This document shows, piece by piece, positions 688 through 31,290 of a DNA stretch of 64,000 bases. The position numbers and the translations under genes were made by a program. Origin of the DNA: Escherichia coli O157:H7 (GTDB lineage Bacteria; Pseudomonadota; Gammaproteobacteria; Enterobacterales; Enterobacteriaceae); the NCBI RefSeq assembly GCF_013167455.1, contig NZ_CP038328.1; one strand, given 5' to 3'. The notes below the pieces were generated by a model, which saw only the letters and a list, made by a program, of their open reading frames with translations, was not told where the DNA came from and did no database searches. The stretch's first letter is position 1. Every line of letters begins with the position of its first letter.

Positions 688-838
688 AACTTTGCCTCAG
701 GCATTAGAAATAGCGCGTTATTGTACACGGATTAATCGCACTACAAAACAGGATCACAAACATCCTCCGCAAACAAGTATTGCAGAGTCCCTTTGTGATC
801 GCTTTCACGGAGCATAAAAAGGGTTATCCAAAGGTCAT

Positions 839-887
839 TGCACCAATATGGTGCTTAATGTTTCCATTGAAGCACTATATTGGTGCA
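839..887 (+). promoter_or_regulatory. Two NtrC (NRI) enhancer sites upstream of glnA
   Basis: tgcaccaatatggtgct (839-855) and gcactatattggtgca (872-887) match the TGCACC-N5-GGTGCA NtrC dyad. Confidence 0.8.
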
Positions 888-3703: not shown

Positions 3704-5113
3704 ATGCAACGAGGGATAGTCTGGGTAGTCGATGACGATAGTTCCATCCGTTGGGTGCTTGAACGTGCGCTCGCTGGAGCGGGTTTAACCTGTACAACAT
3801 TTGAGAACGGCGCGGAGGTACTGGAGGCGCTGGCGAGCAAAACGCCGGATGTGCTGCTTTCAGATATCCGTATGCCGGGAATGGACGGGCTGGCACTGCT
3901 CAAGCAGATTAAACAGCGCCATCCGATGCTTCCGGTCATCATTATGACCGCACATTCCGATCTGGATGCTGCCGTCAGCGCCTATCAACAAGGGGCGTTT
4001 GATTATCTGCCCAAACCGTTTGATATCGACGAAGCCGTGGCGCTGGTTGAGCGCGCCATCAGTCATTACCAGGAACAGCAGCAGCCGCGTAATGTTCAGC
4101 TTAACGGCCCAACGACCGATATCATCGGCGAAGCGCCAGCCATGCAGGACGTGTTCCGTATTATCGGTCGGCTTTCGCGTTCTTCTATTAGCGTGCTGAT
4201 TAACGGCGAATCCGGCACCGGTAAAGAACTGGTCGCTCATGCCCTGCATCGCCACAGTCCGCGAGCCAAAGCGCCATTTATCGCTCTGAATATGGCGGCT
4301 ATCCCGAAGGATTTGATCGAATCAGAACTGTTTGGTCACGAGAAAGGCGCGTTTACCGGCGCGAATACCATTCGTCAGGGGCGTTTTGAACAGGCTGATG
4401 GCGGTACATTATTTCTCGATGAAATTGGCGATATGCCGCTGGATGTGCAGACGCGTTTGCTGCGCGTGCTGGCAGACGGTCAGTTTTACCGCGTTGGCGG
4501 CTATGCGCCGGTGAAAGTGGATGTGCGGATTATCGCTGCCACTCACCAGAATCTCGAACAGCGGGTGCAGGAAGGTAAGTTCCGTGAGGATCTGTTCCAC
4601 CGCCTGAACGTTATCCGCGTTCATCTGCCGCCGCTGCGTGAGCGTCGGGAAGATATTCCCCGCCTGGCGCGCCATTTTTTACAGGTTGCCGCGCGAGAAC
4701 TGGGCGTAGAAGCGAAGTTGCTGCATCCGGAAACCGAAGCCGCGTTGACGCGTCTGGCGTGGCCAGGCAACGTGCGCCAGCTGGAAAACACCTGCCGCTG
4801 GCTAACGGTAATGGCTGCCGGACAGGAAGTGTTGATTCAGGATTTGCCTGGCGAACTGTTTGAATCAACGGTTGCGGAGAGTACTTCGCAAATGCAACCG
4901 GACAGTTGGGCGACGCTTCTTGCGCAGTGGGCAGACAGAGCGCTACGTTCCGGTCATCAAAATCTGCTTTCCGAAGCGCAGCCAGAGCTGGAGCGGACGT
5001 TACTGACGACCGCGTTGCGACATACGCAGGGGCATAAACAGGAGGCGGCGCGGCTACTCGGCTGGGGCCGCAACACCCTGACGCGTAAGTTAAAAGAGCT
5101 GGGGATGGAGTGA
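3704..5113 (+). CDS. glnG: Nitrogen regulation response regulator NtrC (NRI), sigma54 activator
   Basis: Start placed at internal ATG ([23 protein letters not shown]...) giving 469 aa; receiver domain, AAA+ GESGTGKE motif, C-terminal HTH. Confidence 0.95.
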
Positions 5114-5224
5114 TTCACGGCTTGTGTGTAAAGATTGATTATTGAGCGCAAATTGCTGGTATTTTGCGCTTTACTGTTCCGATAAGTTCAGTATGATCTT
5201 GCCCGGAAAACGGGGAGAGTCATT

Positions 5225-5335
5225 ATGCTGGAATCAATAATTAATCTGGTATCGAGTGGCGCAGTTGACAGCCACACACCGCAAACTGCTGTTGCTGCCG
5301 TGCTGTGTGCCGCGATGATTGGGCTGTTTAGTTGA
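5225..5335 (+). CDS. yshB: Small protein YshB (36 aa)
   Basis: ggagag SD then ATG; MLESIINLVSSGAVDSHTPQTAVAAVLCAAMIGLFS, matches my recollection of the small protein between glnG and hemN. Confidence 0.6.
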   Translation: MLESIINLVSSGAVDSHTPQTAVAAVLCAAMIGLFS

Positions 5336-5369
5336 GTTTCAGATTGCTGATGAAGTGCTCTTTGTTCAT

Positions 5370-5457
5370 GCCAGATGCTGCGTGAACGCCTTATCCGGCC
5401 TACAAAAGCAATATTTTCAACAGGTTTTGTAGGCCTGATAAGCGTAGCGCATCAGGC
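5370..5457. repeat. REP/BIME palindromic elements
   Basis: gccagatgctgcgtgaacgccttatccggcctac and gtaggcctgataagcgtagcgcatcaggc, classic REP consensus. Confidence 0.75.
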
Positions 5458-5524
5458 AATCTTGTTCTCAGCACATTGATGGCGCTTTCGTTTTCTACTT
5501 TGTAAACGAAGCGCCATTCACTAT

Positions 5525-6898
5525 TTAAATCACCCGAGAGAACTGCTGCATCCGCGCTTTCTGGCGCAGATAGGTATCAAAGCACATGCAAATGTTGCGG
5601 ATCAGCAAGCGACCTTTCGCCGTCACCTGTATTCCCTTCTCATCCACATCCACCAGCCCATCTTTTGCTAACGGGGCGAGCAGCTTGAGATCTTCCGCAA
5701 AGTAATCAGCGAAGTGCAAATCCCACTGTTTCTCAATAGGGGCGTAATCCAGACGGAAGTTGCAGATGAGCGACTTAATCACATCGCGGCGAATACAGTC
5801 ATCACGCGTTAGCGCAATACCACGCCACAGCGCATTGCCTTGTTCATCCACTTGCTGATAGTACTGCTTCAACTCTTTCTGGTTCTGCGCGTAGCAGTCG
5901 CCAATCATGCTGATGGCGGAAACGCCCATCCCCAGCAGATCGGTATCGCCCTGAGTGGTGTAGCCCTGGAAATTACGATGCAGCACGCCTTCACGCTGGG
6001 CCACCGCCAGCTCGTCATCCGGACGGGCAAAGTGATCCATACCGATAAACTGATAGCCCGATTGCGTCAGGAAGGCGATGGTTTCCTGCAGGATATCGAG
6101 TTTTTGCTGCGGACTCGGCAGGTCAGCATCTTTGATTTTGCGCTGAGCAGCAAAAATGGTCGGCAGATGCGCATAGTTAAAGACGCTCAGACGGTCAGGG
6201 TTTAGCTCCGCCACGCGTTTCAGGGTAAAGGCGAAACTTTCCGGCGTCTGTTTCGGCAGGCCGTAAATCAGGTCGATGTTGGTGGAGGTAAAGCCAATCT
6301 CACGCGCATGGTTAAGCAGCGCAAAGATAAACTCTTCATCCTGCTCGCGGTTAACCAGACGTTGCACTTCTTTGTTGAAGTCCTGCACGCCCATACTCAG
6401 GCGATTAAAGCCCTCGGCGCGTAAATGATCGAGTACATCCAGTTCGATTTCCCGCGGATCGACTTCGATCGAAATCTCCGCATCGGCATTGAACTGGAAG
6501 TTTTCGCGCAGCAGCTTCATCAGGCGGCTGATTTGCGCTTTATTAAGATACGTCGGCGTTCCGCCGCCCCAGTGCAGCTGGCTGACGTGACGCCCGGCGA
6601 ACAGCGGTGCACGATGGACGATTTCTTGCTCCAGCGCGTCCAGATACTGATCGGCCTTGTGCTGCTGGCGAGTAACAATCTTATTGCAGCCGCAGAAGTA
6701 ACAAAGCTTATGGCAGAACGGGATATGTACGTAGAGAGATAATGGACGCTCAGGATAGCGCGCCACGGCTTGTAAAAACGCCTGTTCGCCGAAGTCTTCT
6801 GAAAACTCCAGCGCGGTCGGGTACGAGGTGTATCGTGGCCCGGAATAGTTATATTTCTGGATCAGGGCCAGATCCCAGTCGATTTGCTGTACAGACAT
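5525..6898 (-). CDS. hemN: Oxygen-independent coproporphyrinogen III oxidase (radical SAM)
   Basis: ORF MSVQQIDWDLALIQKYNYSGPRYTSYPTALEF... with CxxxCxxC radical-SAM motif (CHKLCYFCGC); 457 aa from the ATG at 6898. Confidence 0.95.
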   Translation of the reverse strand: MSVQQIDWDLALIQKYNYSGPRYTSYPTALEFSEDFGEQAFLQAVARYPERPLSLYVHIPFCHKLCYFCGCNKIVTRQQHKADQYLDALEQEIVHRAPLFAGRHVSQLHWGGGTPTYLNKAQISRLMKLLRENFQFNADAEISIEVDPREIELDVLDHLRAEGFNRLSMGVQDFNKEVQRLVNREQDEEFIFALLNHAREIGFTSTNIDLIYGLPKQTPESFAFTLKRVAELNPDRLSVFNYAHLPTIFAAQRKIKDADLPSPQQKLDILQETIAFLTQSGYQFIGMDHFARPDDELAVAQREGVLHRNFQGYTTQGDTDLLGMGVSAISMIGDCYAQNQKELKQYYQQVDEQGNALWRGIALTRDDCIRRDVIKSLICNFRLDYAPIEKQWDLHFADYFAEDLKLLAPLAKDGLVDVDEKGIQVTAKGRLLIRNICMCFDTYLRQKARMQQFSRVI

Positions 6899-7593: not shown

Positions 7594-7660
7594 AATGGTT
7601 CGTCTTTTAGCCGTTTTATTCAGTATAGATTTGCGGCGGAATCTAACAGAAAGCAAGCAA

Positions 7661-7904
7661 AGAAAAAAGGCGACAGATTACTCTGTCGCCTTTTTTCCTG
7701 ACTCATAACCCTTAACGGGTCTTACAATCCTTGCAGGCCGCCAACACACCCTGTTTTTCCATTAGCCGGAACAATCCGTGTTGATTCCATTTCCGTTTAA
7801 TTACGTCTCCGGACGTTTGTCTTCCTGACAATCCTCTGTCTTCGCCTCCTGGCGCTCCTGACCCTCATCCTGAGTCATTGTTCCTGTTAGCGTCCTCGCT
7901 CTAT
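7661..7904 (-). ncRNA. csrC: CsrC small RNA (CsrA-sequestering)
   Basis: Minus-strand sequence atagagcgaggacgctaacaggaacaatgactcaggatgagggtcaggagcg... with many GGA motifs, ending in ggcgacag/ctgtcgcc hairpin plus T-run; lies between yihI and engB. Confidence 0.85.
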
Positions 7905-31165: not shown

Positions 31166-31290
31166 CACTTGCCGGATGCGGCGTGAACGCCTTATCCGGT
31201 CTACCGATCCGGCACCAATGTAGGCCTGATAAGACGCGCCAGCGTCGCATCAGGCATCGTGTGCCGAATGCCGGATGCGACATAGATCTA
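31166..31290. repeat. REP/BIME cluster
   Basis: gccggatgcggcgtgaacgccttatccggtctac, gtaggcctgataagacgcgccagcgtcgcatcaggc, gccggatgcgac repeats. Confidence 0.8.

What the first reader, a model, noticed from the sequence alone, without database searches (positions are those of the whole stretch)
5225..5335. 36-aa small protein gene (yshB) hidden in the glnG-hemN intergenic region
The ORF is too short for the six-frame track but has a convincing SD and a hydrophobic C-terminal half (AVAAVLCAAMIGLF), consistent with a small membrane protein. It is followed by REP elements.
Basis: partly seen in the sequence, partly recalled or inferred. Interest (0 to 1): 0.25.

Follow-up and report, generated by a model that had tools for sequence, protein, structure and literature searches.

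The report
Known small membrane protein gene yshB
The 36-codon reading frame between glnG and hemN is real and under clear purifying selection, but it is the already annotated and experimentally studied E. coli small membrane protein gene yshB, so the finding is correct but not new.

Summary
Window 5225-5335 (+) is an ATG-started 36-aa ORF with a GGGGAGAG Shine-Dalgarno sequence 6 nt upstream, a hydrophobic C-terminal 15 residues, and two REP elements downstream. The window matches E. coli O157:H7 at 100% identity, and RefSeq annotates this ORF as yshB. It scores 72.1 bits against the NCBIfam YshB equivalog model, whose cutoff is 34. It is single-copy in 5425 of 5426 complete E. coli genomes.

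In 46 species-level loci, from Escherichia out to Erwinia and Brenneria, the ATG, the SD and the stop position are kept. Codon-position differences are 0.14/0.04/0.42 and pN/pS is 0.18, or 0.26 without the motif used to find the loci. Synteny between glnG and convergent hemN is kept. A sigma70-like promoter (TTTACT-16-TATGAT, 5170-5197) is nearly invariant.

Published work reports native detection by top-down mass spectrometry, cleavage by the intramembrane protease RseP, and a Salmonella virulence phenotype. The molecular function is still unknown. Novelty: already known. Interest is low.

The parts
5225..5335 (+). yshB coding sequence (36 aa plus TGA stop)
   Evidence: ORF list. RefSeq CDS yshB WP_000893994.1 at the corresponding position. 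NCBIfam NF033841 at 72.1 bits against a cutoff of 34. Intact in 45 full-length loci from other species, pN/pS 0.18.
5212..5219 (+). Shine-Dalgarno sequence GGGGAGAG
   Evidence: Read directly from the sequence. A G-rich SD is kept at the same distance in all 45 loci that hold upstream sequence.
5170..5197 (+). yshB's own sigma70-like promoter: -35 TTTACT (5170-5175), 16-nt spacer, -10 TATGAT (5192-5197). The inferred transcription start is near 5204, giving a leader of about 20 nt.
   Evidence: Consensus scan. CTTTAC is invariant, and in GTATGAT only the second G varies, at fixed spacing in 41 aligned loci out to Erwinia and Izhakiella, while the spacer drifts. [quoted passage not shown] The start-site position is inferred, not measured.
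5144..5171 (+). Conserved hairpin GAGCGCAAA-N10-UUUGCGCUU after the glnG stop, followed by UUUACUGUU. It is a possible glnALG terminator that overlaps the yshB -35.
   Evidence: Fold of -11.2 kcal/mol, z -1.7. 95% of cells are paired across 41 sequences but with no covariation. The terminator scan did not call it. The assignment is tentative.
5370..5399 (-). REP element 1
   Evidence: A second copy lies in the window at 31171-31200. Weak naRNA4 (REP-derived RNA) Rfam hit at 5364-5400. Multi-copy in E. coli genomes.
5433..5457 (+). REP element 2, inverted relative to REP 1 (a BIME-like pair)
   Evidence: The pair folds into a long hairpin; the region 5330-5530 gives z -8.6.
5478..5518 (.). Strong hairpin just before the hemN stop codon, a candidate bidirectional terminator for the convergent genes yshB and hemN
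   Evidence: Fold. All 15 sequences examined (the window and 14 other loci) have a strong hairpin in the yshB-hemN gap. Function is inferred.

Best explanation
This is yshB, a conserved single-copy enterobacterial gene for a 36-aa small inner-membrane protein.

Shown here:
- The frame is under purifying selection.
- It has its own conserved sigma70-type promoter and SD, with an inferred leader of about 20 nt.
- It sits between glnG and convergent hemN.
- Its 3' end is followed by REP elements and a hairpin.

Shown by others:
- The native protein accumulates in E. coli.
- It is cleaved by the site-2 intramembrane protease RseP in vivo and in vitro.
- The Salmonella homologue promotes intracellular replication and virulence.

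Inferred mechanism: the peptide is too short for co-translational targeting, so it is inserted after translation. It anchors through its C-terminal hydrophobic helix (residues 21-35). The orientation is probably N-in/C-out, as RseP substrates generally have. The N-terminal amphipathic helix stays on the cytoplasmic side or at the membrane interface. The invariant hinge and face (H17-T-P-Q-T-A22, A25, C28) is the likely contact surface through which it modulates a larger membrane protein, as other small membrane proteins do. RseP would then set its turnover. The partner protein is not known.
For: - Identity: 100% DNA identity to an E. coli O157:H7 chromosome, where the ORF is annotated yshB. 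NCBIfam equivalog at 72.1 bits against a cutoff of 34, covering the full length. Single-copy in 5425 of 5426 E. coli genomes at 95% identity or more.
- Coding signature: 46 loci found. All 45 full-length ones keep the ATG, a 36- or 40-aa frame and the stop position, while the stop codon itself varies among TGA, TAA and TAG.
- Selection: differences per codon position are 0.141/0.039/0.415. pN/pS is 0.18 in frame. Four of the five other frames give 1.4-5.5. The fifth, an antisense frame whose third positions coincide with those of yshB, gives 0.22 but carries stop codons in 30 of 42 sequences. pN/pS is 0.26 after removing the motif used for ascertainment.
- Synteny: glnG lies 96-113 nt upstream in all but two loci, and hemN is convergent in 45 of 46.
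- Promoter: the -35 and -10 are nearly invariant, in agreement with PMC9731577.
- Protein features: hydrophobic residues 21-35, no Lys or Arg. AlphaFold gives helix 2-15, a break, then helix 17-35, at pLDDT 75.8. Invariant residues are M1, H17, T18, P19, Q20, T21, A22, A25, C28 and A29.
- Literature: top-down MS detection (PMC12529367). RseP cleavage was positive in all four assays (PMC10470546). The Salmonella virulence role is cited there and in PMC9731577. The abundance estimate from ribosome profiling is relayed.
Against: - The loci were found through the HTPQTA motif, so conservation of the core is partly by construction. This was controlled.
- The hydrophobic segment is only about 15 residues and has no flanking positive charge, which makes it an atypical membrane span.
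- The RseP assays used N-terminally tagged fusions, and the authors say cleavage of the authentic form remains to be established.
- I could not read the primary papers on discovery, localization or the Salmonella phenotype (Hemm 2008 and 2010, Fontaine 2011, Bomjan 2019); these are known to me only through citing papers.
- The partner protein and the E. coli phenotype are unknown. The interaction mechanism is inference by analogy.
Confidence: 0.97

Rival explanations
1. It is a chance ORF in a non-coding intergenic spacer, and the annotation is a propagated prediction.
For: The ORF is very short, many similar-length ORFs occur by chance in this window, and there is no Pfam family.
Against: The frame, start and stop position are kept in all 45 full-length loci, across three families of Enterobacterales. 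pN/pS is 0.18, with third-position differences ten times those at second positions. The other two + strand frames carry stop codons in 30 and 38 of 42 sequences, and the three reverse frames in 30 to 41 of 42. The native peptide was detected by top-down MS.
Confidence: 0.01
2. The transcript works mainly as a regulatory RNA, an analogue of the Pseudomonas sRNA NrsZ found downstream of ntrBC, and the ORF is secondary or the RNA has two functions.
For: The position downstream of glnLG (ntrBC) matches that of NrsZ, as noted in PMC9731577. The transcript is short and has its own promoter. A 14-nt complement to codons 4-8 lies upstream at 5132-5145.
Against: Synonymous sites vary freely (pS 0.49), so there is little constraint at the RNA level. 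The mRNA body folds no better than shuffled sequence (z +0.70). No Rfam family matches the ORF. The long-range pairing shows no covariation above controls. yshB is reported not to be induced by nitrogen limitation.
Confidence: 0.02
3. It is a type I toxin-like small hydrophobic peptide (Hok, Ibs or Ldr type) that damages the membrane when it is made.
For: It is a small hydrophobic peptide, and RseP also cleaves HokB and HokE.
Against: It is a single-copy core gene with fixed synteny. The scan found no promoter-like site on the antisense strand. The leader is short and the mRNA unstructured, unlike the long folded leaders of such toxins. It has no cationic residues. It is reported to be abundant in normal cells. 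There is no PADLOC hit.
Confidence: 0.01

Closest known systems
YshB of E. coli K-12 and Salmonella Typhimurium (NCBIfam NF033841, small_YshB)
   Same: It is the same gene. It has the same protein as RefSeq WP_000893994.1, the same position between glnG and hemN, and a full-length match to the equivalog model.
   Different: Nothing of substance. The window comes from an O157:H7-like chromosome rather than K-12. The Salmonella diarizonae orthologue found here differs at 2 of 36 residues (M31L, I32V).
Other single-helix enterobacterial small membrane proteins that modulate larger membrane proteins (MgrB with PhoQ, Blr with the divisome, CydX with cytochrome bd), as summarised in PMC10470546
   Same: Size below 50 aa, one hydrophobic helix, own promoter, RseP substrate class. 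This is the basis of the inferred mode of action.
   Different: There is no sequence relationship. YshB has no known partner. Its hydrophobic segment is shorter (about 15 aa), lies at the extreme C-terminus, and has no Lys or Arg.
REP/BIME extragenic palindromes of E. coli
   Same: The 5370-5457 block is a pair of inverted imperfect palindromes between convergent genes, and it is present at about 21 places per genome.
   Different: It is not part of the gene. It is absent from the same gap in the Salmonella, Trabulsiella, Kosakonia and Erwinia loci examined, which have a single hairpin instead.

Membership tests
YshB family small membrane protein (NCBIfam NF033841, equivalog) | Whole-protein score above the curated cutoff, with full-length coverage of the model | tested here: met
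   72.1 bits against a cutoff of 34, E 2.4e-20; residues 1-36 on profile positions 1-40 of 40
YshB family small membrane protein (NCBIfam NF033841, equivalog) | Conserved core H-T-P-Q-T-A ... A ... C, and a length of 36-40 aa | tested here: met
   H17, T18, P19, Q20, T21, A22, A25, C28 and A29 are invariant in 29 distinct family sequences. Lengths are 36 or 40 aa in 45 loci. The motif was used to find the loci, so its invariance is partly by construction.
YshB family small membrane protein (NCBIfam NF033841, equivalog) | Orthologous position: downstream of glnG, convergent with hemN | tested here: met
   RefSeq context. glnG is upstream in 44 of the 44 loci that reach that far, and hemN is convergent in 45 of 46.
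YshB family small membrane protein (NCBIfam NF033841, equivalog) | The frame is under purifying selection, so it is a real coding sequence | tested here: met
   pN/pS is 0.18, or 0.26 without the ascertainment motif. Codon-position differences are 0.141/0.039/0.415.
YshB family small membrane protein (NCBIfam NF033841, equivalog) | The protein is actually made | not testable with these tools
   Literature only: top-down MS detection in E. coli (PMC12529367), and a ribosome-profiling-based copy estimate relayed by PMC7549839. The Ribo-seq supplementary tables are not held.
YshB family small membrane protein (NCBIfam NF033841, equivalog) | Integral membrane localization through a single transmembrane helix | tested here: inconclusive
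   Hydropathy shows one hydrophobic segment of only about 15 residues (21-35) and no flanking positive charge. AlphaFold gives a helix over 17-35. Cleavage by the intramembrane protease RseP supports insertion. The localization paper (Fontaine 2011) is not held.
REP/BIME repetitive extragenic palindromes (the 'followed by REP elements' claim) | Imperfect palindrome, many dispersed copies per genome, extragenic position | tested here: met
   Inverted arms are 94% complementary. The median is 21 places per genome. The block lies between the yshB and hemN stop codons. Another copy is in the window at 31171-31200.
Type I toxin small hydrophobic peptides (considered and rejected) | An antisense or overlapping sRNA gene, a long structured leader, and usually several copies per genome | tested here: not met
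   No promoter-like site on the - strand. The mRNA is unstructured, z +0.70. The gene is single-copy in 5425 genomes.

The most novel reading that the evidence does not exclude
Transcripts that read through from glnALG could silence yshB. The segment 5132-5145, just after the glnG stop codon, is complementary to yshB codons 4-8 (5234-5247; 13 Watson-Crick pairs and one G.U). It lies upstream of yshB's own promoter, so the pairing can form only on a readthrough glnALG RNA. That would keep yshB translation insulated from nitrogen-limitation induction. A conserved hairpin that overlaps the yshB -35 (5144-5171) would serve both as the glnALG terminator and as part of the promoter. The evidence does not exclude this, but it does not support it either: the pairing is kept in Escherichia, Salmonella and Citrobacter but shows no covariation above controls.
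Probability: 0.05. Interest if true: 0.3.

Novelty: already known. Interest (0 to 1): 0.06.

Why it matters
As a discovery it does not matter, because yshB has been annotated since the comparative-genomics small-protein work cited as Hemm et al. 2008 and is in RefSeq. It is useful as a calibration point. A reader without tools found a genuine 36-codon gene from the SD and hydrophobicity alone, and the conservation test confirms it cleanly. The open question lies in the biology, not the annotation. YshB's molecular partner and its function in E. coli are unknown, even though it is reportedly abundant, it is an RseP substrate, and Salmonella needs it for virulence. The invariant H-T-P-Q-T-A / A25 / C28 face mapped here is an obvious target for mutagenesis.

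Tried and rejected
I used the exhaustive representative search instead. It gave only 15 hits at E<=1e-3, several of them frameshifted or over-extended metagenome gene calls.
- No hits in Pfam, PADLOC or PDB sequences.
- Rfam over the intergenic region gave only a sub-threshold naRNA4 hit on the REP element.
- The long-range pairing 5132-5145 / 5234-5247 looked compensatory by eye. It failed the formal test: covariation score 0.104 against 0.098 in shuffles, with 99 of 500 shuffles as high, and the key pair unpaired in 27 of 41 sequences. I rejected it as a supported RNA helix.
- The hairpin 5144-5171 is 95% paired but has no covariation and a weak fold. It is left as tentative.
- The one antisense frame with a low pN/pS (0.22) shares its third codon positions with yshB and carries stop codons in 30 of 42 sequences. 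I rejected it as a gene.
- Papers not held: Hemm 2008 and 2010, Fontaine 2011, Bomjan 2019, Li 2014, the EcoSal review, and Yadavalli 2022. A guessed id for the published version of the Weaver Ribo-seq paper was also not held.
- Ribo-seq supplementary tables are not held, so I could not read an initiation-site peak for yshB directly.

Full report
**Observation.** Window 5225-5335 (+) holds an ORF of 36 codons, from ATG to TGA, encoding MLESIINLVSSGAVDSHTPQTAVAAVLCAAMIGLFS. This ATG is the first possible start after the preceding in-frame stop. GGGGAGAG lies at 5212-5219, with its GGAG core 7 nt from the ATG. The flanking genes are glnG (ending at 5113, + strand) and hemN (5525-6898, - strand, convergent), as RefSeq annotates the identical sequence.

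**Identity.** The intergenic region is 100% identical to E. coli O157:H7 chromosomes. The feature under the match is 'yshB: YshB family small membrane protein' in every sampled row that covers the ORF. The ORF with its SD is single-copy in 5425 of 5426 complete E. coli genomes at 95% identity or more. The protein scores 72.1 bits against the NCBIfam equivalog model NF033841 (curated cutoff 34) over its full length. It has no Pfam family, no PADLOC hit and no relative of solved structure. An exhaustive HMMER search of 1.84 billion representative proteins found only 15 relatives at E<=1e-3. All share the HTPQTA...LC core, and several are evidently frameshifted or over-extended metagenome gene calls. 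The family is therefore narrow.

- A motif-seeded scan of one genome per species returned 46 loci. They come from Escherichia, Salmonella, Citrobacter, Enterobacter, Kosakonia, Trabulsiella, Phytobacter, Pluralibacter, Pseudenterobacter, Leclercia, Mangrovibacter, Izhakiella, Erwinia and Brenneria.
- All 45 loci that hold the whole gene keep an ATG at the same position, a G-rich SD, and an intact frame of 36 aa (40 aa in Mangrovibacter and Brenneria). The stop stays in the same place even though the stop codon changes among TGA, TAA and TAG.
- Among 42 distinct 36-codon sequences, the mean pairwise difference is 0.141, 0.039 and 0.415 at codon positions 1, 2 and 3. pN/pS is 0.18 in the annotated frame and 1.4-5.5 in four of the five other frames.
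- The one antisense frame with a low ratio (0.22) is the one whose third positions coincide with those of yshB, and it is interrupted by stop codons in 30 of 42 sequences.
- Because the loci were found through the HTPQTA motif, I recomputed without codons 16-25. pN/pS is then 0.26, with 0.32 for the N-terminal third and 0.15 for the hydrophobic C-terminus.
- The frame is under purifying selection, so the refutation criterion is not met.

**Context and expression signals.**
- glnG lies 96-113 nt upstream in all but two loci, and hemN is convergent downstream in 45 of 46.
- A sigma70-like promoter, TTTACT-16 nt-TATGAT, lies at 5170-5197. In an alignment of 41 loci, CTTTAC is invariant, and in GTATGAT only the second G varies. 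The spacing is fixed out to Erwinia and Izhakiella, while the spacer and the leader drift.
[quoted passage not shown] The transcription start (about 5204) and the 20-nt leader are inferred.
- The mRNA body folds no better than shuffled sequence (z +0.70) and synonymous sites vary freely (pS 0.49). I therefore see no evidence of a structured-RNA function.

**Downstream region.**
- The 189-nt gap to hemN holds two REP elements in inverted orientation, at 5370-5399 (-) and 5433-5457 (+). They fold into a long hairpin; the region gives z -8.6.
- The block matches a median of 21 places per E. coli genome.
- A separate strong hairpin lies at 5478-5518, next to the hemN stop codon.
- The gap ranges from 28 to 607 nt across species. 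All 15 sequences examined have a strong hairpin there. The Salmonella, Trabulsiella, Kosakonia and Erwinia loci examined carry a single hairpin instead of the REP pair seen in the window, so the pair is an Escherichia-lineage addition rather than part of the gene.

**The protein.**
- It has no Lys or Arg, two acidic residues and one His. The only strongly hydrophobic segment is residues 21-35 (mean Kyte-Doolittle 2.37), which runs to the C-terminus.
- Fifteen residues is short for a membrane span, and there is no positive-inside signal. Sequence alone therefore leaves membrane insertion plausible but not proven.
- AlphaFold, run with the family alignment, gives helix 2-15, a break at residue 16, then helix 17-35, at moderate confidence (pLDDT 75.8).
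- The invariant residues are M1, H17, T18, P19, Q20, T21, A22, A25, C28 and A29. They form the hinge and one face of the hydrophobic helix.

**Published evidence.**
- PMC12529367 detected native YshB by top-down proteomics and notes that it lacks tryptic sites, which matches the composition computed here.
- PMC10470546 found YshB positive in all four RseP cleavage assays: two in vivo tag formats with plasmid-borne RseP, chromosomally encoded RseP, and purified enzyme. It placed YshB in its class I substrates, while cautioning that cleavage of the authentic untagged form remains to be shown.
- That paper and PMC9731577 cite Bomjan et al. 2019 for a role of Salmonella YshB in intracellular replication and virulence, and Hemm et al. 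2008 for the discovery.
- PMC7549839 and PMC10502375 relay an estimate of more than 11,000 copies per cell, which PMC7549839 cites to Li et al. 2014, a ribosome-profiling-based study. PMC7549839 also reports that a C-terminally His-tagged YshB could not be detected.
- I could not read the primary papers by Hemm, Fontaine, Bomjan or Li, or the Ribo-seq supplements. Those points are second-hand.

**Mechanism.**
- Shown: yshB is a conserved, separately promoted, translated small gene whose product is an RseP substrate.
- Inferred: the peptide inserts after translation by its C-terminal helix, probably N-in/C-out as RseP substrates generally are. It binds a larger membrane protein through the invariant HTPQTA/A25/C28 surface, and RseP limits its level.
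- The partner is unknown. This step rests on analogy with MgrB, Blr and CydX, which appear in the same RseP screen.

**Rivals.**
- A chance ORF is excluded by the codon-position pattern.
- An RNA-only or dual-function role, by analogy with Pseudomonas NrsZ downstream of ntrBC, has no support from structure or synonymous-site constraint.
- A type I toxin is unlikely given the single-copy core status, the absence of any antisense promoter-like site, the unstructured short leader and the reported high abundance.

**A lead followed and not supported.**
- A 14-nt inverted repeat joins 5132-5145 (after the glnG stop, upstream of the yshB promoter) to codons 4-8.
- It is kept in Escherichia, Salmonella and Citrobacter, with one apparently compensatory change.
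- On the 41-sequence alignment, however, covariation does not exceed the shuffles: 0.104 against 0.098, with 99 of 500 shuffles as high. The key pair is unpaired in 27 of 41 sequences.
- I record it only as the most novel reading not excluded.

**Verdict.** The gene is already known and annotated, so interest is low.

Noticed in passing
window 5132-5145 and 5234-5247: A 14-nt inverted repeat (13 Watson-Crick pairs plus one G.U if it is RNA) links the segment just after the glnG stop codon to yshB codons 4-8. It is kept in Escherichia, Salmonella and Citrobacter but shows no covariation above controls across 41 species.
   Followed up: yes
window 5144-5171: A conserved hairpin, GAGCGCAAA-N10-UUUGCGCUU, is followed by UUUACUGUU, which is also the yshB -35. 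It may be a glnALG terminator overlapping the yshB promoter. The fold is weak (-11.2 kcal/mol, z -1.7), 95% of cells are paired but without covariation, and the terminator scan did not call it.
   Followed up: partly
window 5126-5136: The block TGTAAAGATT, about 70-80 nt upstream of the inferred yshB transcription start, is nearly invariant across Enterobacteriaceae but not in Erwinia or Izhakiella. It could be a regulator binding site.
   Followed up: no
L003:2612-3218 (Escherichia sp. MOD1-EC7003): The yshB-hemN gap is 607 nt instead of 189. It contains several REP copies and what looks like a duplicated copy of the hemN 3' end and its hairpin, suggesting a REP-associated duplication.
   Followed up: partly
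window 7651-7904 (- strand): The CsrC sRNA (Rfam RF00084, 277.9 bits) lies between yihI and yihA. RefSeq's 'hypothetical protein, frameshifted; internal stop' pseudogene in the O157:H7 record (L001 5599-5765, about window 7712-7878) falls inside it, so it is probably a spurious protein-coding call on an sRNA gene.
   Followed up: partly
window 769-876 (- strand): An Rfam hit above the gathering score to the ES222 sRNA (RF02755, 133 bits), upstream of the glnA region.
   Followed up: no
Genome-contig scan: No Klebsiella, Raoultella, Cronobacter, Serratia or Yersinia locus was returned, although Erwinia, Izhakiella and Brenneria were. Either the family is patchy in Enterobacterales, or those genera carry a variant without the exact HTPQTA motif that the scan required.
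   Followed up: no
window 31171-31200 (- strand): Another REP copy, with 3 mismatches to the one at 5370-5399.
   Followed up: no
L028:2501-2623, and L045-L047:2501-2623: YshB of Brenneria and Mangrovibacter is 40 aa, with a 4-residue insertion in the linker just before the invariant SHTPQTA motif. In Brenneria, hemN is not downstream, and glnG ends 266 nt upstream rather than about 110 nt.
   Followed up: partly
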